Source: an uncultured Gemmatimonadota bacterium
GTDB lineage: Bacteria; SM23-81; DAOVCL01
DNA length: 57,515 nt
Assembly (NCBI GenBank): GCA_964626665.1
Contig: CAZVGK010000021.1
Coordinates: 1-57,515 of the forward strand
Reading direction: 5' to 3'
Shown: piece after piece, positions 1-17,859 of the stretch
Layout of the letters: each line of letters starts with the position of its first letter
Position numbering within the stretch: the first letter of the stretch is position 1
Position numbers and translations under genes: made by a program
The notes under the pieces: model-generated
What the model was told of the DNA's origin: nothing
The model's database searches: none
What the model saw: only the letters and a program-made list of their open reading frames with translations

Positions 1-348
1 AAGCGCTTATCTCCAATTTCAAACGGGGATTGAAGGCTTCGCTTTGCACATGGAAAGGCTGGGAAGCGTTCAAGCGTTTCGTACTATGGAGTATCATTAC
101 TTTCAACATGCGGGTGATCGCCAGATGGATTGTTGCTAAACTTGGGAATGCGTAATTTGAGAAATAGAACCTTTGAACCACCAAGGGAGTAGTACGCCCA
201 AAACTGAAAAATATTGCGGTTTGGGCATTAATTTTTACATTTCTTGGGGATATAGACAGAAATGGTGAAAAACCGATCCCGTTTTCTGTGACCATCAGGC
301 ATACTTAAATAAAAATACCAACAAAAATGCCCATTTTCGGACAGACAC
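1..348 (+). mobile_element. Right end of IS, terminal IR TTTTCGGACAGACAC at 334-348
   Basis: Transposase tail plus a terminus identical (inverted) to the left end of the adjacent MITE. Confidence 0.6.
3..155 (+). CDS. C-terminal end of an IS5/ISNCY-like DDE transposase (runs off the window start)
   Basis: Manual translation ALISNFKRGLKASLCTWKGWEAFKRFVLWSIITFNMRVIARW...*, resembling the E-x2-IS-x2-KR...C.WKG...F...V..S....N C-terminus of these transposases; followed by a terminal IR at 334-348. Confidence 0.65.
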   Translation, partial: ALISNFKRGLKASLCTWKGWEAFKRFVLWSIITFNMRVIARWIVAKLGNA

Positions 349-354
349 TAAGTA

Positions 355-578
355 GTGTCTGTCCGAAAACTACCAAAATTGAAATATTTCCGTCATTGCG
401 AGCGACTGAAAGGAGCGAAGCAATCTCCTAAGAATGGAAAAGATTGCTTTATCGTTCGTTCCTCACTCCTCGCCCTGTTAGATAAGCCCCATAATTTTTG
501 GCTCTTGCCAAGATGTTATTGATATCTAACAGGGCGAGCAATGACATTTCCCTGAAAACTGAATTTCCGGACAGCCCC
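355..578. mobile_element. MITE sharing the TIR of the adjacent IS; contains a GTCATTGCGAG/GAAGCAATC palindromic repeat and a nested 66-bp IR element
   Basis: Left GTGTCTGTCCGAAAA versus reverse complement of right end GGGGCTGTCCGGAAA (12/15); internal CGCCCTGTTAGATA...TATCTAACAGGGCG at 471-536. Confidence 0.6.
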
Positions 579-725
579 TGTTTAGCCTCTCCTTATTCCT
601 GATCAAGTCCGTGTGAACACCATCCTATAGGTACAATGCAACAGAAGCACCTTTTTAAACTTTTTATATCCCCCTTGGCCTTATCTTCTTGGCCAAGTCT
701 ACTTTCCCGGGCATTTCTCCCTTCT

Positions 726-754
726 AAAGTAGCCTTGTTTGCCTTAAATGTCAA
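726..754 (-). promoter_or_regulatory. Putative sigma70 promoter ahead of a short decayed ORF (ATG at 714)
   Basis: TTGACA-17 bp-TACTTT, then AGGGAG and ATG CCC GGG AAA; the frame closes after 16 codons. Confidence 0.35.
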
Positions 755-1137
755 CCTAAAACTTATACAAATTAGCGAGACGAGTGGGGTCAGGTCTTGC
801 TTTTTGCTATCTTAAAAAGTGAAGGGGTTTTCTGGAGGAAGGGAAAGGGGTGGTGAGACGGGAAGGGAAAGGTATGCAGCAAGGCTCTCACTTGAGGAGA
901 TATTTATGCTAACGAGGGCATATACGAGGTCGTTTACCCGTAACGAATCCATCAAACATAATCTCCATTTTTCAGCCCGACCCCAATTGCACATTTTCCC
1001 TTCGTATTCTCTTTGGCGCGGTTTTGGAGAGCCCCTTTCCAAAAAGATATCTCAGGGGAAGATGGATTTGTGAGAATCTTATTGTTAGAAACTGCACAAA
1101 CACCTAACCAAATGGAAGTTCAAAAAGGATAACCTTA

Positions 1138-1160
1138 AAAATGGGAAGTGTCCCTATTTT
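1138..1160. repeat. Solo copy of the 23-bp RAYT-element hairpin site
   Basis: AAAATGGGAAGTGTCCCTATTTT, 22/23 identical to the sites at 24138, 25305, 26523, 27639 and 29563. Confidence 0.8.
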
Positions 1161-1170
1161 CCCCCTCAAG

Positions 1171-2904
1171 CTACTTTGGGGGATACTCTACCTTCTTGAA
1201 CCACTTCATCTTTATATCGGGGAAGAGACGGTCCCTCTCCTCACAGGCCCCCAAGAATTTCCACTCCCCGGGATCAACCCATTTCCCTTTTCCATACCTT
1301 TCGGCCATATCCGCCAAGCGGAGGAAGTTTTGATGATGCTCGGAAAGCCTGAGCTCGGCATAGTCCCTGGCGGACCAGGTGCTAATTAAGAACTGCCAAT
1401 CAGAGGACTCCAGCAACATTAACTCCCTGGCCAACTGTTTAAGGATCTTCAAAAGGTTATGATCCTGGGTCTCCTCAAACCTCTGGGCCAGCTCCTTCAT
1501 CTTCCTTTCATCCTCATAGATGTGTTTCCAGGTCCATTGAGTCCATTCGTTTAACCAGATGTAGTGATACCCTCCTTTTCCCCAGGAGCCCTCAGGAAGG
1601 GAGACCACCTTAAATGGCTTGGCCTGGTCCAGACTGGCCCCACAGGTGGCCAGCTCTATCTGCTTGTCCTCCCCCATCAGTTTTAAGACCTGATAGAGCC
1701 ACTGGGGGCCCTCAAACCACCAGTGACCAAACAGCTCCGCATCAAAGGGAGCACAGAGAACCCCTTCCCTGTCGCTCTGGCGGCGATAATTGGCCAGGAT
1801 CCCCTTGGCCATTTTATGGAAATGGTTAGCGTTTTCCACTACCCTGGCGTTGACCTTATCCGGTTCATACTCCAATTTGTCTGCCAAATCACTTTTAGCG
1901 CTGGTCACCCTCCAGTATCTGTGGCCCCCCGGAAAATGCTTTTTGTGAAAGTCCAGATACCAACCATCCCCCGGATAACCCCTCTCCCCACTCCACACCT
2001 GCAGCCCGGTTTCCGGATCCCGGGTGAAGATGGCCACGGGCTTCTTCCCTTCACTTGAGCCAACCAAATAAACCTCGTAAGGGCTCTTTTCCTCATCCTC
2101 CTTTTGGGGGCGATACTGCTTTTCAAACCTCCCCCAAAGCTTCTTTAAGGCCTCAAACCGATCAATATAGACCCCAATGGACTTACCGCCCTTGAGCAAT
2201 ACCGAGTCAATGATAAAGTACTCAATCCCATTTTCGCTGAGAAACTCCTCTATCCCCTTGCGCAGCGATTTACCCTTCCCATTTCCCACCGGTGGCGTCC
2301 ATTCATACCGGGGCCGATAGGCACATTCGGGCAACCATATCCCCCGTGGTTTCCTCCCGAAGATCCTCTCATAGCTTAAGATGCCTTGCTTTATCTGGGC
2401 TTGCACAGATGTATCCTCACCTAAGAGGGGAAGATAGCCGTGGGTAGCCGCCGAGGTAATCAGCTCCGCAACCCCCTTCTCCTGTAGATCCCGCAGAGGG
2501 GCGATCAGATCCCGCTTATACCTATCCTCAAACCTATCTTTTATTCCCGCATAATGCTCCCTCCAGAAGCGAGCCAGTTGGGCCAGGTGCGGTCTGCTCC
2601 AATCAGAGAATTGCTTATAGTCGGCCTCGGCAGATTGGATCTTATTCTCCAGGTAGGAGGAGAACTCAGTGGGAAATGAGCTATCGGAGAGCTGCTCAGC
2701 CAGAACTGGGGTAACCCCGATGGTTATGTGAGGTGAGTAGCCCTCTTCAAGCAACCGATAGAGGAGATCAATTACGGGGATATAGGTCTCCGCCATTGCC
2801 TCGTTAAGCCAGTCCATTCCATGAGGCCATCTTCCATGGTCCAATACATAGGGAAGGTGGGAATGAAGGACAAAGGTAAAGCTTCCTAACTTCTCTTTAG
2901 CCAT
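1171..2904 (-). CDS. GH57 1,4-alpha-glucan branching enzyme (DUF1957 C-terminus)
   Basis: HSHLPY, WLNEAMAETYIP, THGYLPL, nucleophile WLPECAY, acid/base PFDAELFGHWWFEG, ELMLLESSDW. Confidence 0.92.
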   Translation of the reverse strand: MAKEKLGSFTFVLHSHLPYVLDHGRWPHGMDWLNEAMAETYIPVIDLLYRLLEEGYSPHITIGVTPVLAEQLSDSSFPTEFSSYLENKIQSAEADYKQFSDWSRPHLAQLARFWREHYAGIKDRFEDRYKRDLIAPLRDLQEKGVAELITSAATHGYLPLLGEDTSVQAQIKQGILSYERIFGRKPRGIWLPECAYRPRYEWTPPVGNGKGKSLRKGIEEFLSENGIEYFIIDSVLLKGGKSIGVYIDRFEALKKLWGRFEKQYRPQKEDEEKSPYEVYLVGSSEGKKPVAIFTRDPETGLQVWSGERGYPGDGWYLDFHKKHFPGGHRYWRVTSAKSDLADKLEYEPDKVNARVVENANHFHKMAKGILANYRRQSDREGVLCAPFDAELFGHWWFEGPQWLYQVLKLMGEDKQIELATCGASLDQAKPFKVVSLPEGSWGKGGYHYIWLNEWTQWTWKHIYEDERKMKELAQRFEETQDHNLLKILKQLARELMLLESSDWQFLISTWSARDYAELRLSEHHQNFLRLADMAERYGKGKWVDPGEWKFLGACEERDRLFPDIKMKWFKKVEYPPK

Positions 2905-2976
2905 TATTAGTTTCCTTTTGGTAACAGTTCACAGAAATCAGAGGTCAGCAGTCGGCAATCAGCGGTCAGCCGATTC

Positions 2977-3549
2977 TTATGGCAACCGTTTCCCCCTAAC
3001 CTCTGCAGCCCGCAACTTCTGAGAGGTACCGAAATGAAGGTCCATCAGCTCTTTTAGCTCCTCGGAGGAAAGAGGGGCCTCCTGCCTCCATTTTCTCACC
3101 TCAAGGCGGGAAGGGGCTTCCCTCTCCACTTCCTTCAATAACATCCTCCCCTCATCGGAGAGAAAATACTCATAGATCCTCAAATCCTTTAAGGGAAGGT
3201 AGGAGAGGGCCGTCCTGATCCTGTGGGGGAGTTGGGAGACGACCAGAACCACCCCAGGAAGCTGAGAGGGGTCAAGCTCTTTAGAGAGGAGGCTTAGATT
3301 AGGGAGATTTTGCCGGGCCCAATCGTAACCATTTAAAAGCTGGCAGATGAGAACCTCTTCCGGCTGAGGGAAGAGGCCAACAAGGAGAAGCTTCCCTTCC
3401 TGCAAGGCCAAGAGGTCGCTCCCTCCTATCTCCGGGGTGCCCATATCCCTCTGTAGGATCCTCACTCCCTTTTTCTCCAATTCCGGGATCAAAAGGCTTA
3501 AGAGCTCATCCTTGGTATCCAAGCTCCTCCTCCCTGAGGGCAAGTTCAA
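2977..3549 (-). CDS. Hypothetical protein, possibly a degenerate PD-(D/E)XK/NucS-like fold (start may be the TTG at 3522)
   Basis: ILQRDMGTPEIGGSDLLAL-x4-LLLV resembles the NucS-like D-L-L-A strand but lacks ExK; overlaps the upstream gene. Confidence 0.5.
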   Translation of the reverse strand: MNLPSGRRSLDTKDELLSLLIPELEKKGVRILQRDMGTPEIGGSDLLALQEGKLLLVGLFPQPEEVLICQLLNGYDWARQNLPNLSLLSKELDPSQLPGVVLVVSQLPHRIRTALSYLPLKDLRIYEYFLSDEGRMLLKEVEREAPSRLEVRKWRQEAPLSSEELKELMDLHFGTSQKLRAAEVRGKRLP

Positions 3550-4285
3550 ACTTCTCGCAGAAATTGTTATCCACTTCCCCTTCCAGAATAAGATCAGCTA
3601 TGTTTAGGATAGCTCTCTTCAGCCGGGAGGGGACAATAGAGGAGAGGGGGGATCTCCCCTCCTTAATTGACTGGGAGATGTGCAAATCATTAAGCAGAAA
3701 ACCGTAATCCCTTAGATCAATTTTTAGATGCCTCCCAGCAACGGCTTTCATCCCCTCAAAGTTGGCCTTGGCCTCCTGGGCTGTGCAAACTTTGGCGATA
3801 ACCACGCCGATCCTTACCTCCTCCCGGAAGAGGTGAATGCTCTTTATCAATTGGTAACTACCTATCCTTCCCAAGAGATCCACTGGCAGGATAACAATTG
3901 CCTCACCTACCAACTTAAGGATGATCTGGCTTAGAGGGGAGGAGAATGGAGGTGCATCTATGAGAACGATTTCGCTTTGCCTGCCCATCTCCGCAATACC
4001 CTGCAAGAGGGATGAGGTGGGGGGTAAAAGAACTCGGAGAGGTTTGAGCTGCGCATGGAATGGATCTAAAAGGTGGGATACGGGGGGGAACTGCAGGTCG
4101 GCCTCTAAGATCCCTACCCTCCTCCCTTTTTGCGTTAGGGCTAAGGCTAGGTTAGTCACCAGAAAAGGCTTCTCTATCTCACCGAATGGGGAGAAAAGGC
4201 AAACTTCCCTTCTGGCTAATGAGCTTTTGGCCTTTGCATCTTGGGAGACAAAGAGGTGGGAGAAATCTTCTAATCCTCTGCCCAT
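3506..4285 (-). CDS. MinD/FlhG-like protein with degenerate Walker A and an N-terminal GRGL peptide
   Basis: SPFGEIEKPFLVTNLALAL in place of SGKGGVGKT..TNLA; VGILEADL, VLIDAPP, FlhG-like C-terminus. Confidence 0.75.
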   Translation of the reverse strand: MGRGLEDFSHLFVSQDAKAKSSLARREVCLFSPFGEIEKPFLVTNLALALTQKGRRVGILEADLQFPPVSHLLDPFHAQLKPLRVLLPPTSSLLQGIAEMGRQSEIVLIDAPPFSSPLSQIILKLVGEAIVILPVDLLGRIGSYQLIKSIHLFREEVRIGVVIAKVCTAQEAKANFEGMKAVAGRHLKIDLRDYGFLLNDLHISQSIKEGRSPLSSIVPSRLKRAILNIADLILEGEVDNNFCEKFELALREEELGYQG

Positions 4286-4290
4286 CTCCT

Positions 4291-5358
4291 TCAGGGAACG
4301 ATGATAACCGAATTCTCTCCACCGTAAGGATTGGAAATGATCTGAGGGTTATGAGGATCCGTCATCCATTTTCCGTTTACCACCAACCTATATTCATATC
4401 TGCCCTTGTCCAACCGGAGAAACTTACTCCATCTCCCATCTCCACCCTTGTCCAACTGAGATTTCCCCCCAAGCTTCCAGTCGTTGAAGTCCCCCACCAC
4501 CTGGACATCCTCCGCGTCCGGGATCTTATAGGAGAAGAAGACCCCATCATCCAATATCTGAGGGCCAATTGATTGATCCTCTGCTTTCTCGGCCCAAACT
4601 TCCCCCTTAATGACCTCCTCAGTCAGTTGCCGGTAATCCCTATATCCGGATGAAGTTTTGTCCAATTTGGTGATGGGCACCCTGCTCAGAGCAGCTTCCC
4701 TTAACCTTATATTGGTATGGATAACGGAGTTGAAGACCTTTCCTGCAAAGTGTTCCCTAATCCTTTTGAAAATCTCCTTGGCCAGCTTAGTGCGCCGGTC
4801 ATAGATGGTAGCTAAAGCCATTATCCTGGTATTGTGGCCAGCCCTTTCACTCAATACCCGGGTCGTCTCCAAGAGCTTTTCTACTCCATGGAGGGAGAAA
4901 ATGCTGGTCTCGATGGGCACGATCACCTCATCACAGGCCCTAAGGGCATTAAAGGTAAGGAGACCTATGCTGGGAGGGCAATCCACAATGAGGAAGTCAT
5001 AGGGGATGGTGAGAGATTGGATGACATTGTGCAACCTGAGTTCTCTGCCCGGCCTTCCGGAAAGCTCCTGTTCTAAAGCCGAGAGAATAACGCTGGAAGG
5101 GACCAGATCGAGGTTGGGAAGGATGTGCAGGGTAACCTCCTCCAGGGTGGTGGGAGAGGATAAATCGGAGAGGACATCATACATATTTCTTGCCAGTTCC
5201 TCTGGATCACCCATTAGCCCCAAGGTGGCATGGGCCTGCGGATCGAGGTCGATCAAAAGGACCCTTTTTTCCCTCTCTGCCAAACAGGCGGAAAGGTTTA
5301 TGGCAGTAGTGGTCTTACCACATCCCCCCTTCTGATTGGCAATGGCTATCTTTCTCGT
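4291..5358 (-). CDS. ParA/Soj ATPase fused to a C-terminal glycogen-binding domain (AMPK-beta/CBM48-like)
   Basis: Frame extends 25 codons upstream of the listed ORF: (ACG)[38 protein letters not shown]-terminus VVGDFNDW...[19 protein letters not shown]...PYGGENSV. Confidence 0.9.
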
Positions 5359-5367
5359 CTTTCCCTC

Positions 5368-5682
5368 TTACTCGGGTTCTTGCCCCTTCTGAAATCCAAT
5401 CTCCTTCTCGCCCCTTCCAAAGGTCTTAATGGCCCCAAATTGGTTCTCATACTTCTTTATGTTCTCCTCTAAGGCGGAGAGCAACATCTTCGCATGTTGG
5501 GGGGTCATCACAATCCGGGCATAGACTTTGGATTTGTTTGTTCCGGGGAGAACCCGCGCAAAATCTATGATGAATTCAGAGGAAGAATGGGCGATAAGAG
5601 CCAAATTGGAGTAGATTCCCTCAGACTCCTTCTCTCCCAATTCGATCTTGATCTGTTGTCCTTTATTTCCCATTTTTAACAT
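5368..5682 (-). CDS. DUF3467 family protein (start may be 5673)
   Basis: EGIYSNLALIAHSSSEFIIDFAR...ARIVMTPQHAKML...YENQFG. Confidence 0.85.
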   Translation of the reverse strand: MLKMGNKGQQIKIELGEKESEGIYSNLALIAHSSSEFIIDFARVLPGTNKSKVYARIVMTPQHAKMLLSALEENIKKYENQFGAIKTFGRGEKEIGFQKGQEPE

Positions 5683-5875
5683 AATAAACTAACCTTATAT
5701 GAAATGTCAAGGAGAATTTTTCTTATTTTTGACGATTATCGCCGGTAAAGAATTCCCCTTTGACCTATGTGGGGTAGAAACCGCAGAATCACGCAGATGG
5801 ACGCAAATTAGTTGTGCAGTCAGAGCTCTGCCCATAACCTGGTCCTCAAAACTAACCCCCGATCCCCCTAAACCG

Positions 5876-14928: not shown

Positions 14929-17778
14929 TTACTGCGGAAGTCGGGCTTTACCAGATAAATCCAATATCTTCTTCAAAAATCCTCCGGTGTAGGATTTTTC
15001 GTTCCGGGCAACCTCCTCCGGGGTTCCCGTGGCCACCACCCATCCCCCATCATCCCCTCCCTCCGGCCCCAGGTCTATGAGATAATCGGCGGATTTAACC
15101 ACATCAAGGTTGTGCTCAATGACGATGACCGTGTTCCCCCTCTCTACCAACCTGTTGAGAACCCGGAGGAGCATCTTTATGTCCTCAAAATGGAGGCCAG
15201 TGGTGGGCTCATCGAGGATATAGAGGGTCCTTCCCGTGCTTAGCTTGGAGAGCTCGGAGGAGAGCTTCACCCGCTGGGCCTCACCTCCAGAGAGGGTGGT
15301 AGCCTGCTGGCCTAAGTGGATGTAACCCAACCCCACATCGACCAAGGTCTGGAGCTTTCTCCTTATCTGGGGGATCTTTTGGAAAAACTGCAGGGCTTGG
15401 TTCACCGTCATATCCAAGACATCGGCAATTGACTTCCCCCGATACCTTATCTGCAGGGTCTCCCGATTATATCTTCTCCCATGACAGACCTCACAGGGGA
15501 TATAGACATCGGGGAGAAAATGCATCTCTATCTTGATGATGCCATCCCCCCGGCAGGCTTCACACCTTCCCCCCTTCACATTGAAGCTGAACCTTCCTGG
15601 CTGATAACCCCTCACCTTGGCCTCTGGAAGCAGAGAGAAGAGTTGCCTTATATGGGTAAATACCCCCGTGTAGGTGGCCGGATTGGAACGAGGGGTTCTC
15701 CCTATGGGCGACTGGTCTATATTGATTACCTTGTCTATCTTCTCCAACCCCTCTATTCTTTCGTATCCTAAGGGGGAGGCCCTTGAGCTGTAAAAGTGCC
15801 TGGAGAGGGCTCGATAAAGGGTCTCATTAATTAGGGTGCTCTTCCCCGAGCCGGATACCCCGGTGATGCAGATGAAGGTCCCCAGGGGGAAATCCACCCT
15901 AATGCGCTTCAGGTTGTTTCCTGTGGCCCCAATAAGGGAGAGTTGACTGAAGTTTCCCCTCCTCCGTGAGACCGGAGTAGGAATGGAGAGCTCCCCGGAG
16001 AGATACCTGCCGGTGAGAGAATTAGGATTCCCCTTGATCTGCACAGGGGAACCGACAGCCACTAAGTATCCCCCTTCTGCTCCCGCCCCTGGCCCTAAGT
16101 CAACTACCCAATCCGCCCTTTCAATGGTCTCCCGGTCATGTTCCACCACTAATACCGTGTTGCCCAAATCTCTTAGGTTGGTCAGGGTGTTCAAAAGCCT
16201 GCAGTTATCCCTCTGATGGAGGCCAATGCTGGGTTCATCTAAAATGTAAAGGATGCCCACAAGCCGGGAACCAATCTGGGTAGCCAACCTTATCCTCTGG
16301 CTCTCCCCTCCAGAGAGGGAGCCCGCTGACCTGTCTAAAGTGAGATAGTCAAGCCCCACATCGATCAGAAACCTTAGCCTCTCCTTTATCTCCTTGAGTA
16401 TCTGGGTGGCCACCATCATCTCTTTATCAGTCAACTGCAAAGTGGAGAAGAATTTCATCGCCTCCTTGACCGACATCGCGGTCAACTGGTTAATAGAGAG
16501 CCCGGCGAGCTTGACTGCCAGACTCTCCTTCTTCAGCCTTGCTCCCTGGCAATCCGGACAGGGCCTGATGCTCATAAAGCCCTCAATCCAATTCCTCACC
16601 CCGGGGGATGAGGTCTGCAGGTAGCGACGAGTGAGCCGGGGGATAACCCCCTCAAATTTCCCTATATACTCCCCAAACCCCTTGCCTTCAGCTAAGTTAT
16701 ATCTGAACCTCATAGTATCTTTTCCCGATCCATAGAGGATGATCTTCTGCACCTGGGAACTGAGCTCACAGAAGGGGGTGTCCAAACTAAATCCGTACTT
16801 TTCGGAAAGGGACTTAAGCTGAAAGCTAATCCATTTGCCTGGAGGGGAACCCCAGGGAACAATGGCCCCTTGGTTTATGCTCTTTTGGGGATCGGGGATT
16901 ACCAACCCTGGGTCTATCTCCCTTTTAGTGCCCAATCCACTACAGGTGGGACAGGCCCCATAGGGACTATTGAAGGAGAATATCCGCGGGGAGATTTCCT
17001 CGTAGCTTATCCCACAGTAGGGACAGGCATAATTCTCATTAAAGAGCAGATCCTCTTTCTCTTCTTGACTCACCAGGGCAATTCCCGCACCAAGCTTGAG
17101 GGCTGTCTCCAAAGAGTCTGCCAGCCGGGAGGCCACCTTCTGGCCAATGACCAAGCGATCCACCACCACCTCGATGTTATGTTTTCTGTTCTTGTCCAGA
17201 CTGATGGGGGAATCAAGCTCCCTAACTTGCCCATCAACCCTGACCCGCACATATCCCTTCCCCTTTACCTCCTCAAAGGCATCCCGATACTCCCCTTTCC
17301 TTCCCCTGACCATTGGGGCCAGGATCTGTATTCTACTTCCCTCAGGGAGGCTGAGGAGGGAGTCCACCATCTGTTGCACTGTTTGCCTGGTTATCCGCCG
17401 GCCACACTTATAACAATAGGGGGTTCCCACCCTGGCATAGAGGAGCCTGAGGTAGTCGTATATCTCGGTAACCGTGGCCACTGTTGAGCGGGGGTTCTTC
17501 CCTGCTGATCTTTGTTGAATGGAGACCGCCGGGGAGAGACCCTCTATCAAATCCACATCTGGCTTCTCCATCAGCCCCAAAAACTGTCGGGCATAGGCCG
17601 AGAGGGACTCCACATACCTCCTCTGCCCTTCGGCATAGAGAGTATCAAAGGCCAGAGACGACTTCCCGGAACCGGAAAGCCCGGTAATTACCACCAGCTT
17701 ATCCCGGGGTATCTCTAAATCGATGCTCTTCAGATTGTGCTTCCTGGCCCCTTTAACTATTATCTTTCCGGGAATCAT
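14929..17778 (-). CDS. uvrA: Excinuclease ABC subunit A
   Basis: Two ABC domains ([23 protein letters not shown]) and Zn fingers. Confidence 0.97.
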
Positions 17779-17859
17779 ATTTATCCTCGGATGGAGAGGA
17801 TTAAAGCTCACCATCATAATCCTAAATTCCGGCCCTGACGGAGCTAAACACTTTGATCT

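What the first reader, a model, noticed from the sequence alone, without database searches (positions are those of the whole stretch)
1171..5682. Candidate glycogen-granule positioning system: ParA-CBM48 fusion, pseudo-ATPase partner and GH57 branching enzyme in one operon
Seen: five co-oriented, tightly spaced genes. The ParA has an intact deviant Walker A (KGGCGKT) and Soj-like basic patches ([12 protein letters not shown]), and is fused to an AMPK-beta/CBM48 glycogen-binding domain. The operon ends in a GH57 branching enzyme, and no parB is present in the window. Established: orphan ParA/MinD ATPases position protein cargo over the nucleoid (McdAB for carboxysomes, PpfA/ParC for chemoreceptor arrays), and CBM48 binds glycogen. 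Inference: this ATPase tethers alpha-glucan granules to the nucleoid and distributes them to daughter cells. I know of no characterised system of this kind.
Basis: partly seen in the sequence, partly recalled or inferred. Interest (0 to 1): 0.88.

Follow-up and report, generated by a model that had tools for sequence, protein, structure and literature searches.

The report
ParA ATPase fused to glycogen-binding module
This operon encodes a chromosome-partition-type ATPase joined to a glycogen-binding domain, together with partner proteins and the cell's branching enzyme; it may place or partition glycogen stores, but that role is untested and a recent preprint instead proposes an immune role for the same gene family.

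Summary
On the minus strand, 5682..1171 carries DUF3467, a ParA-CBM48/AMPK1_CBM fusion, a P-loop-degenerate MinD/FlhG-like protein, a NucS-like nuclease-fold protein with no Pfam family, and a GH57 branching enzyme. One caveat: the fusion gene has ACG where a same-genus relative has ATG.

New here:
- The degenerate partner starts with a ParB-type ParA-binding peptide (GRGLE..).
- This genome's own ParAB pair lies on another contig.
- The fusion is the genome's only CBM48 domain.
- The five-gene order recurs across its small phylum.

The fusion family occurs in at least 588 species genomes. GH57 lies within 10 kb in 19 of 80 loci, and in 12 of a 50-locus subset where chance gives 0.8. In Omnitrophota the fusion was found in 81 of 139 genomes with glgA and 0 of 12 without.

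Against a universal glycogen role, five Myxococcota-type genomes carry the module but no recognisable glycogen genes.

The architecture is already in print. A bioRxiv preprint of October 2026 describes a "ParA-CBM" system and predicts immunity. My tests of prevalence, CBM conservation, synteny and PADLOC hits fit that reading poorly.

This scan has met the fusion at least 19 times on other DNA. Function remains inferred.

The parts
5368..5682 (-). DUF3467 small protein (104 aa), first gene of the cluster. It is specific to this lineage and not part of the family-wide core.
   Evidence: Pfam PF11950 2.3e-28. Found upstream of the fusion in 5 of 6 same-phylum loci. Found in 0 of 80 loci from other phyla, and none of the five DUF3467 hits in the second set came from its 80 metagenome loci.
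4291..5358 (-). ParA/Soj-type ATPase (about residues 1-255) fused to a C-terminal CBM48/AMPK1_CBM domain (about residues 262-352). The start position holds ACG (5358-5356), and the first in-frame ATA is at 5349.
   Evidence: Pfam AAA_31 9.7e-51, AMPK1_CBM 2.4e-9, CBM_48 1.1e-7. PDB best matches: ParA 8RAY 4e-46, Soj 1WCV and 6IUB. The CBM aligns to the AMPK beta and LSF1 CBMs. Key residues are conserved in 27-30 of 30 homologues.
3506..4285 (-). Partner 1: an N-terminal ParB-like ParA-binding peptide (MGRGLEDFSHLF) on a MinD/FlhG-fold domain with a degenerate P-loop (FGEIEKP in place of KGGxGKT).
   Evidence: Weak Pfam ParA/CbiA/AAA_31 hits below cut-off. The family profile matches FleN/FlhG structures at 1e-31. 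Alignment A3 shows the degenerate P-loop. Motif comparison with this genome's own ParB (MARKALGRGLEALI) is, and with the M. xanthus motif positions.
2977..3549 (-). Partner 2: an acidic protein of about 181-190 aa with a NucS-C/YraN-like (PD-(D/E)xK) core that lacks the catalytic E/K, and a conserved C-terminal tail. The probable start is TTG at 3522, after GGGAGGAGGAG.
   Evidence: No Pfam or NCBIfam family. The profile matches NucS 2VLD at 0.059 and YraN 3FOV at 0.14. NucS_C matches 3 of 28 members, best 0.0023. The family has 2455 representatives at E<=1e-3. Family median pI is 5.4. The gene junction was read.
1171..2904 (-). GH57 1,4-alpha-glucan branching enzyme (577 aa).
   Evidence: Pfam Glyco_hydro_57 4.9e-36 and BE_C 1e-23. 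NCBIfam branching-enzyme models score 2.7e-158 and 2.4e-144, but below their equivalog cut-offs. It is one of two GH57 genes in the genome. The genome has no CBM48-bearing GH13.
5681..5710 (-). Promoter-like site TTGACA-18-TATTAT (11 of 12) just upstream of DUF3467.
   Evidence: This is a consensus match only: 6 such sites were found in the region against 7.8 expected.
333..370 (-). Strong terminator-like hairpin (17 pairs plus a T-run), about 800 nt downstream of the GH57 stop.
   Evidence: This is a consensus match only.

Best explanation
The locus encodes a ParA-type positioning module whose ATPase carries its own alpha-glucan-binding domain.

Proposed mechanism (inferred):
1. ATP-bound ParA-CBM48 dimers bind the nucleoid through the conserved Soj-type basic residue.
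2. Their two CBM48 domains bind glycogen particles at the same time, weakly and multivalently.
3. The downstream partner docks its ParB-like N-terminal peptide into the conserved pocket at the dimer interface. This partner is a dead MinD/FlhG fold, probably working with the nuclease-fold protein.
4. Docking triggers ATP hydrolysis and release.
5. Repeated cycles tether, space or partition the granules.

Co-transcription with the genome's GH57 branching enzyme would couple the module to glycogen synthesis.

Shown here: the domain architecture, motif conservation, the partner peptide, and the genomic linkage.
Inferred: glycogen and DNA binding, ATPase stimulation, and any positioning.
For: 1. 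Architecture and conservation. The signature and P-loop lysines, Walker A' and B aspartates are present in 30 of 30 homologues. R/K215 is present in 30 of 30; by my inference this aligns with the NVR arginine that is M. xanthus ParA R238, whose R238E variant loses DNA binding (paper passage). The CBM residues W291 and W328 are present in 30 of 30, R/K321 in 30 of 30, and N346 in 27 of 30. These align with the FNNW/QYK/DGQW/VNN positions of AMPK beta.

2. Partner peptide. The window's partner starts MGRGLEDF, and 16 of 80 loci match the strict motif K.LGRGLEDxSHLFLS just downstream, with variants elsewhere. This matches the L-x-R-x-L-x-x-hydrophobic pattern of ParB (L11, R13, L15, L18) and this genome's own ParB. 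The ParB-pocket segment [12 protein letters not shown] is nearly invariant in the fusion family.

3. An extra ParA. A canonical parAB pair lies on C19. The fusions form their own group apart from chromosomal ParAs (support 90/94).

4. Glucan linkage.
- GH57 lies within 10 kb in 19 of 80 genome loci, in two different arrangements, and in 16 of 86 loci of a second set.
- In a 50-locus subset, 12 have it where 0.81 are expected.
- Four of the 5 same-phylum loci with enough downstream sequence have DUF3467-fusion-partner-partner-GH57.
- The fusion is this genome's only CBM48/AMPK1_CBM domain. A GT5 GlgA is present.
- In 151 Omnitrophota genomes the fusion was found in 81 of 139 with GlgA and 0 of 12 without.
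- Stand-alone AMPK1_CBM ORFs sit directly upstream of glgA in at least 13 of those genomes.

5. Housekeeping-like behaviour. The relA-uvrB flank is syntenic in the genus, and the module stays next to relA in two other genera.
Against: - No binding or localisation data exist.
- Five module-bearing genomes lack GT5 GlgA, GH57, GT35, GH77 and CBM48-bearing GH13. They are G041, G049, G066, G069 and G070; G070 is a 6.2-Mb chromosome-level assembly. Each has at most one GH13.
- The same-genus genome G002 has the module without the adjacent GH57. G001, also same genus and 90% complete, showed no fusion.
- GH57 is absent from 61 of 80 neighbourhoods. Apart from phosphoglucomutase in 8 of 80 loci, no other glucan enzyme recurs.
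- A cargo-binding domain on the ATPase is unlike every known ParA system.
- The partners carry no recognised glucan-binding domain in this variant. In the other variant the partner is a predicted membrane protein.
- The nuclease-fold family is acidic.
- In this genome the start codon is ACG, so the protein may be poorly made or truncated.
Confidence: 0.4

Rival explanations
1. Immune sensor (the preprint's reading). The CBM detects infection-linked carbohydrates or loss of polysaccharide. This triggers ParA multimerisation on nucleic acid and limits a phage or plasmid. The inactive second ParA and the inactive restriction-endonuclease-fold protein act as extra sensors.
For: bioRxiv 10.64898/2026.10.19.760177, section 'CBM-containing system' (passages read), describes exactly this architecture and both of its variants. 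The partner proteins do diverge fast: mean pairwise identity is 0.22-0.23, and 63% and 58% against G002 compared with 77% for the fusion. Within the genus the fusion is present in some genomes and not others (G001).
Against: - It is not sporadic where I sampled. AMPK1_CBM occurs in 126 of 151 Omnitrophota genomes. The fusion occurs in 81 of 151, as a single copy in 80 of those 81. It occurs in 6 of 7 genomes of the window's phylum.
- The CBM is only slightly more divergent than the ATPase (0.46 against 0.53), and its ligand residues are invariant.
- There is no defence-island context. PADLOC gave only scattered generic hits among 120 neighbouring ORFs (RmuC in 3) and no hit to any PADLOC model for the DUF3467, partner and GH57 genes, the fusion itself giving only two weak partial matches (PDC-M28B 6.6e-6 over residues 6-36; mad8 2.7e-4).
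- The flanks are relA and uvrB and are syntenic.
- No effector domain is present.
- The preprint's supplements could not be seen.
Confidence: 0.17
2. Glycogen-state sensor or organiser that does not use the nucleoid. As in the AMPK beta subunit, the CBM reports or exploits glycogen occupancy. The ATPase switch then recruits or regulates glycogen enzymes, or anchors granules at the membrane or pole. It does not partition them over DNA.
For: In the second variant the protein carrying the N-terminal helix is a single-pass membrane protein with a lysine-rich cytoplasmic stretch (cluster 2 in 17 loci and cluster 18 in 6 loci). The partner in this window derives from the membrane-associated MinD/FlhG branch. 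A GH57 gene is adjacent.
Against: The Soj-type DNA-binding basic residue is kept in 30 of 30 homologues. The ATPase is closest to chromosomal ParA/Soj. No membrane-targeting helix is evident on the fusion itself.
Confidence: 0.2
3. The cargo is not a glucan. The CBM48-like domain has been re-used as a protein-binding module or binds another polymer, and the GH57 linkage is lineage-specific.
For: Five genomes carry the module without recognisable glycogen genes. A clade member (L188) has a different, unassigned C-terminal extension and still keeps the partner with the motif.
Against: The sugar-contacting residues are invariant even in the Myxococcota sequences. GH57 is enriched nearby and the fusion co-occurs with glgA.
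Confidence: 0.12
4. In this particular genome the fusion gene is decaying or silent, because the ATG has become ACG. This is independent of what the family does.
For: ACG lies at 5358-5356 where G002 has ATG. The first canonical start, TTG at 5283, lies after the P-loop. The truncated gene call was seen on 5 contigs.
Against: The frame is open and 77% identical to the G002 ortholog over all 352 residues, and every motif is intact. A Shine-Dalgarno GAGG sits 5 nt before the ACG. A sequencing error or near-cognate initiation is also possible.
Confidence: 0.15

Closest known systems
'ParA-CBM' system (branch ConB5) in bioRxiv 10.64898/2026.10.19.760177 (October 2026; passages read)
   Same: The same family: ParA with a C-terminal AMPK1_CBM. 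The variant has a second inactive ParA and an inactive restriction-endonuclease-fold protein, as in this window. The other variant has an upstream single-pass membrane protein with a CBM.
   Different: The preprint predicts immunity from 'sporadic' distribution and 'rapid' CBM divergence. My samples show high prevalence, conserved ligand residues, linkage to GH57 and glgA, and syntenic housekeeping flanks. The words 'ParB-like', 'N-terminal peptide' and 'activating peptide' occur 0 times in its main text. Its supplements were not seen.
Chromosomal ParABS (Soj/ParA with Spo0J/ParB)
   Same: The ATPase is closest to ParA 8RAY and to Soj 1WCV and 6IUB. It has the deviant Walker A, the DNA-binding basic residue, and a partner bearing an LGRGL-type N-terminal peptide.
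   Different: The partner has no ParB HTH or CTPase domain, and no parS was sought or found. The ATPase carries a CBM. The genome has a separate canonical parAB pair.
McdAB carboxysome positioning and PomXYZ (ParA/MinD cargo systems)
   Same: An extra ParA-family ATPase plus a dedicated partner with an N-terminal activating peptide, proposed to position a non-DNA cargo over the nucleoid (abstracts of PMC6328274 and PMC7993993 seen in search listings).
   Different: In those systems the partner binds the cargo. Here the ATPase itself carries the putative cargo-binding domain. No homology to McdB or PomX was tested.
AMPK beta-subunit / LSF1 CBM48 glycogen- and starch-binding domains
   Same: The sequences match at 1e-5 to 5e-5, with aligned Trp/Lys(Arg)/Trp/Asn positions.
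   Different: The domain sits in a bacterial protein fused to a P-loop ATPase rather than in a kinase scaffold or phosphatase. The residue numbering of AMPK beta1 is recalled from memory, not from a call.
FlhG/FleN/MinD (for partner 1)
   Same: The family profile matches FleN/FlhG structures at 1e-31 over the whole fold.
   Different: The P-loop and Walker B are degenerate in most members. The protein also carries a ParB-like N-terminal peptide, which I do not recall FlhG or MinD carrying (not checked in any call).

Membership tests
ParA/Soj subfamily of ParA/MinD ATPases | Deviant Walker A with a signature lysine (KGGxGK[ST]), plus Walker A' and Walker B aspartates | tested here: met
   KGGCGKT is present. 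K7, K12, D36 and D123 are conserved in 30 of 30 homologues. AAA_31 scores 1e-50.
ParA/Soj subfamily of ParA/MinD ATPases | Basic residue needed for non-specific DNA binding (M. xanthus R238) | tested here: met
   R215 lies in NIRLREA, and R or K occupies this position in 30 of 30 homologues. It aligns to the NVR arginine of 8RAY. The R238E phenotype comes from a passage of PMC12462528. The residue mapping is my inference.
ParABS partition system | Partner is a ParB with HTH and CTPase domains that binds parS | tested here: not met
   The genome's only ParB_N match is on C19. The partners here have a MinD/FlhG fold and a nuclease fold.
ParABS partition system | [quoted passage not shown] | tested here: met
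   The window's partner starts MGRGLEDFSHLF. The strict motif occurs in 16 of 80 loci, with variants in others. Motif positions are from PMC12462528.
CBM48 / AMPK1_CBM | Match to the Pfam model above its curated cut-off | tested here: met
   AMPK1_CBM scores 37.7 bits against a cut-off of 26.8. CBM_48 scores 32.6 bits against 22.4.
CBM48 / AMPK1_CBM | Binds glycogen or alpha-glucan | not testable with these tools
   Only conservation of the aligned Trp/Arg/Trp/Asn positions could be checked.
ParA-CBM system of the 2026 preprint | ParA plus a C-terminal AMPK1_CBM, a second inactive ParA, and an inactive REase-fold protein | tested here: met
   compared with the passage read.
Anti-phage defence system (the role the preprint proposes) | Sporadic distribution, fast-evolving sensor domain, defence-island context | tested here: not met
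   The fusion occurs in 81 of 151 Omnitrophota genomes and 6 of 7 own-phylum genomes. CBM identity is 0.46 against 0.53 for the ATPase. PADLOC gave only generic scattered hits. The flanks are syntenic. The partner proteins are fast-evolving, so this test is not decisive.
GH57 glycogen branching enzyme | GH57 catalytic domain plus the BE_C C-terminal domain | tested here: met
   The NCBIfam equivalog cut-offs were not reached: 528 bits against 1000, and 482 bits against 920.
MinD/FlhG ATPases (partner 1) | Functional P-loop | tested here: not met
   The window has FGEIEKP in place of KGGxGKT. The family ranges from near-intact to fully degenerate.
NucS/YraN PD-(D/E)xK nucleases (partner 2) | Fold-level similarity and the catalytic D...E-x-K | tested here: inconclusive
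   Sub-threshold matches only: 0.059, 0.14, and Pfam 0.0023 in 3 of 28 members. The E and K positions are not kept in the window sequence. The structure prediction did not finish.

The most novel reading that the evidence does not exclude
Bacteria from many phyla actively tether, space or partition glycogen granules using a ParA motor that grips the polysaccharide directly. A ParB-type peptide borne on interchangeable partners fires the motor. This would be the first positioning system for a carbohydrate storage granule, and the first ParA that carries its own cargo-binding domain.
Probability: 0.3. Interest if true: 0.85.

Novelty: new member of a known kind. Interest (0 to 1): 0.55.

Why it matters
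How bacteria organise and inherit glycogen is unknown. Neither review of ParA/MinD cargos that I searched mentions glycogen.

This family gives a concrete test of whether glycogen is actively positioned or partitioned, and the test needs few components. They are one ATPase with a built-in CBM, a 20-residue activating peptide, DNA and glycogen.

The family also sets two published or proposed readings against each other: positioning and immunity. They predict different, easily measured phenotypes.

The family is abundant in uncultured phyla (Omnitrophota, Planctomycetota, Myxococcota, Rokubacteria), where cell biology is almost unexplored.

Tried and rejected
1. Complex prediction (ParA 1-255 as a dimer, plus ATP, plus partner 1).

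2. Structure prediction. Jobs for partner 2 (A2) and partner 1 (A3) were accepted. They had not finished after the collecting, so there is no model and no fold search.

4. DUF3467 as a core component. Rejected: it is present in 0 of 80 loci from other phyla and in none of the 80 metagenome loci, and only within the window's phylum.

5. A stop-codon read-through fusion of DUF3467 and ParA (same reading frame in the window and in G002). Nothing supports it beyond the shared frame, so it was dropped.

6. A metagenome scan for close relatives, to check the ACG start. The best match had only 49% identity. The check was done with G002 instead.

7. A second homologue search, seeded with a Myxococcota member, to find a cultured host. 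All named hits were MAGs.

8. Rfam found nothing in the window.

9. A Pfam tally of 120 further neighbouring ORFs found no other recurrent glucan enzyme.

Full report
**What is there.**

Five genes lie head to tail on the minus strand.
- DUF3467, 5682..5368.
- A ParA ATPase fused to a CBM48/AMPK1_CBM domain, ending at 4291.
- A 259-aa ParA-like protein without a P-loop, 4285..3506.
- A protein of about 190 aa with no Pfam or NCBIfam family, 3549..2977.
- A GH57 branching enzyme with its BE_C domain, 2904..1171.

The junctions are tight. The fusion's TGA is followed by AGGAG and then the ATG of the next gene. The fourth gene probably starts at TTG 3522, after GGGAGGAGGAG, overlapping the third gene's end. 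A promoter-like site (11 of 12) precedes DUF3467, and a 17-pair terminator-like hairpin lies at 370..333. Both are consensus matches only. Upstream are uvrB and relA/spoT.

No ATG, GTG or TTG precedes the Walker A motif. The codon aligned with the initiator of homologues (which start MRKIA...) is ACG at 5358-5356. The same-genus genome G002 has ATG there. Public gene calls give a 321-aa product that lacks the P-loop, seen on 5 contigs.

**The ATPase and its CBM.**

The ATPase domain is closest to chromosomal ParA/Soj structures: 8RAY at 4e-46, then 1WCV and 6IUB. The tail matches the LSF1 and AMPK beta CBMs at about 1e-5.

In an alignment of 30 family members (43-87% identical to the window protein), the following are conserved:
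- The signature and P-loop lysines and the Walker A' and B aspartates, in all 30.
- R/K215, in all 30.
- The CBM residues W291 and W328 in all 30, R/K321 in all 30, and N346 in 27.

R215 aligns with the NVR arginine of 8RAY. I infer this to be M. xanthus ParA R238, whose R238E variant lacks non-specific DNA binding (passage of PMC12462528). The AMPK residue names are recalled from memory.

The genome (99.65% complete) has a canonical parA-parB pair on contig C19. The fusion is therefore an additional ParA. In a 39-row tree the 30 fusions, plus one CBM-less relative (L188), group apart from the chromosomal ParAs with support 90/94. The sample is small and the tree is unrooted.

**The partners.**

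The third gene's product begins MGRGLEDFSHLF. In 16 of 80 related loci the gene just downstream of the fusion carries K.LGRGLEDxSHLFLS near its N-terminus. Other lineages show variants, RDLxDVLHYF and RGIxSIAHLFLS.

This matches the ParB motif. [quoted passage not shown] This genome's own ParB starts MARKALGRGLEALI. The pocket segment [12 protein letters not shown] is nearly invariant in the fusions.

After the peptide comes a fold that matches FleN/FlhG at 1e-31 as a family profile. Its P-loop ranges from near-intact to fully degenerate, and reads FGEIEKP in the window.

The fourth protein belongs to a family of 2455 cluster representatives at E<=1e-3. Its core gives sub-threshold matches to two PD-(D/E)xK families: NucS C-terminal domain at 0.059 and YraN at 0.14, and Pfam NucS_C in 3 of 28 members. 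The catalytic E/K positions are not kept in the window sequence, and the family is acidic, with a median pI of 5.4.

In Rokubacteria, Gemmatimonadales and Acidobacteria this protein carries the LGRGLED peptide itself, and the dead ATPase is absent.

**Distribution and neighbourhood.**

The best 80 loci come from Omnitrophota, Planctomycetota, Myxococcota, Desulfobacterota, Rokubacteria, Gemmatimonadota, Acidobacteriota and Spirochaetota.

Counts in those 80 loci:
- A downstream same-strand ORF matches the partner-1 profile in 36 of the 70 loci with at least 1 kb downstream. That profile includes the shared peptide.
- The nuclease-fold family occurs in 35 of 80 loci.
- GH57 lies within 10 kb in 19 of 80. 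Fifteen of these have the order GH57, then a small membrane protein, then the fusion.
- Phosphoglucomutase occurs in 8 of 80.
- DUF3467 occurs in 0 of 80.

In that second arrangement, the upstream protein of about 189 aa has a conserved N-terminal helix, a lysine run, one transmembrane segment and a CBM-like domain.

A second set of 79 metagenome loci and 7 phylum loci gave similar figures. Some partner was present in 39 of 62 loci with at least 1 kb downstream, and GH57 in 16 of 86. A Pfam tally of 120 further neighbours found no other recurrent glucan enzyme.

One genome (G043, locus L024) is flagged unpublished. It is one unit in these and the following tallies, and no claim depends on it.

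**Is the glucan link real?**

For it:
- In 50 module-bearing genomes there are 85 GH57 matches, and random placement predicts 0.81 loci with one within 10 kb. Twelve were observed (Poisson 8e-11). Related genomes are not independent, but there are at least two arrangements.
- In the window's small phylum, 6 of 7 genomes have the fusion.
- DUF3467-fusion-partner-partner-GH57 is kept in the window and in 3 other genera.
- The fusion is this genome's only CBM48/AMPK1_CBM domain. The genome has one GT5 GlgA, two GH57 genes and no GT35.
- In 151 Omnitrophota genomes at least 80% complete, the fusion was found in 81 (78 of them covering the CBM end). All 81 are among the 139 genomes with GlgA, and none is among the 12 without (Fisher 6e-5).
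- Stand-alone AMPK1_CBM ORFs lie directly upstream of glgA in at least 13 of those genomes (coordinates).

Against it:
- G002, in the same genus, keeps relA-uvrB-DUF3467-fusion-partners but has no GH57 downstream.
- Five Myxococcota-type genomes, one of them a 6.2-Mb chromosome-level assembly, have the three-gene module but no match for GT5 GlgA, GH57, GT35, GH77 or CBM_48, and at most one GH13. The fusion is their only AMPK1_CBM.

**What is in print.**

Five full-text searches were run. Term look-ups in two ParA/MinD papers found 0 mentions of glycogen in each (PMC11407121 and PMC10241942). I found no characterised system.

The fifth search found bioRxiv 10.64898/2026.10.19.760177 (22 October 2026). 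Its section on a 'CBM-containing system' describes ParA with AMPK1_CBM and both extensions seen here, and proposes an immune sensor on the grounds of sporadic distribution and rapid CBM divergence (passages read). Its main text contains 0 occurrences of 'ParB-like', 'N-terminal peptide' or 'activating peptide'.

My tests fit the immune reading poorly:
- Prevalence is high and the gene is mostly single-copy.
- CBM pairwise identity is 0.46 against 0.53 for the ATPase.
- The housekeeping flanks are syntenic. Identity to G002 is 77% for the fusion, comparable to relA at 79%.
- PADLOC hits are only generic.

The partners do evolve fast, at 0.22-0.23 pairwise identity, and at 63% and 58% against G002. 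The immune reading is therefore not excluded.

**Verdict.**

The most likely reading, at about 0.4, is a ParA-type module that binds alpha-glucan through its own CBM and is fired by a ParB-type peptide on its partner. In this lineage it is tied to glycogen synthesis. Whether it positions granules over the nucleoid is inferred only.

Earlier agents of this scan reached the same anatomy on at least 19 other genomes (consulted after my own analysis).

Because the architecture is now described in a preprint, this window is a new member of a known, though uncharacterised, kind. It adds the GH57 and DUF3467 operon, the peptide evidence, the counter-examples that lack glycogen genes, and the ACG start.

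Complex and structure predictions could not be obtained.

Noticed in passing
window 5356-5358 (minus strand): The fusion gene has ACG where the same-genus ortholog has ATG. A Shine-Dalgarno GAGG lies 5 nt upstream. Public gene calls start after the P-loop.
   Followed up: partly
window 24000-57515: G+C falls from about 0.51 to 0.33-0.44. The stretch encodes an exopolysaccharide cluster: exosortase EpsH, several GT1, GT2 and GT4 glycosyltransferases, a Wzy-like polymerase, a flippase, a polysaccharide deacetylase fusion and a large Ig-domain protein.
   Followed up: partly
Omnitrophota genomes, e.g. G204:C42:9264-10228, G188:C75:10223-11191, G154:C18:234000-234983: Small (about 100-aa) stand-alone AMPK1_CBM ORFs sit directly upstream of the glycogen synthase gene, on the same strand, in at least 13 genomes (coordinates compared).
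   Followed up: partly
L188:7586-8551 (G013): A ParA that nests inside the fusion clade has an unassigned C-terminal extension of about 70 aa instead of a CBM. It is still followed by a dead-ATPase partner carrying the GRGL motif.
   Followed up: partly
window 371-1170: About 800 nt without a convincing ORF lie between the GH57 stop and a 17-pair terminator-like hairpin. Rfam finds nothing there.
   Followed up: no
G004:C164 and G006:C85 (same phylum as the window): Several CBM48-like matches lie in tandem on single contigs, in open frames from about 140 to 1137 aa. This may be an expanded CBM gene cluster.
   Followed up: no
window 5368-5370 and L171 (G002): The DUF3467 stop codon and the fusion's start are in the same reading frame, three codons apart, in both genomes. 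This may be coincidence.
   Followed up: no
L022, L023, L031, L053, L057, L086, L089 (Myxococcota-type loci), 6-9 kb downstream of the fusion: A recurrent pair of further ParA-like ORFs (about 330-620 aa) lies on the same strand, and a phosphoglucomutase gene lies on the opposite strand.
   Followed up: no
window 14929-17817 (minus strand): A 962-aa ABC-type protein scores 2e-101 against the PADLOC model mad3. It looks like housekeeping UvrA, near uvrB, and shows how generic such PADLOC hits can be.
   Followed up: no
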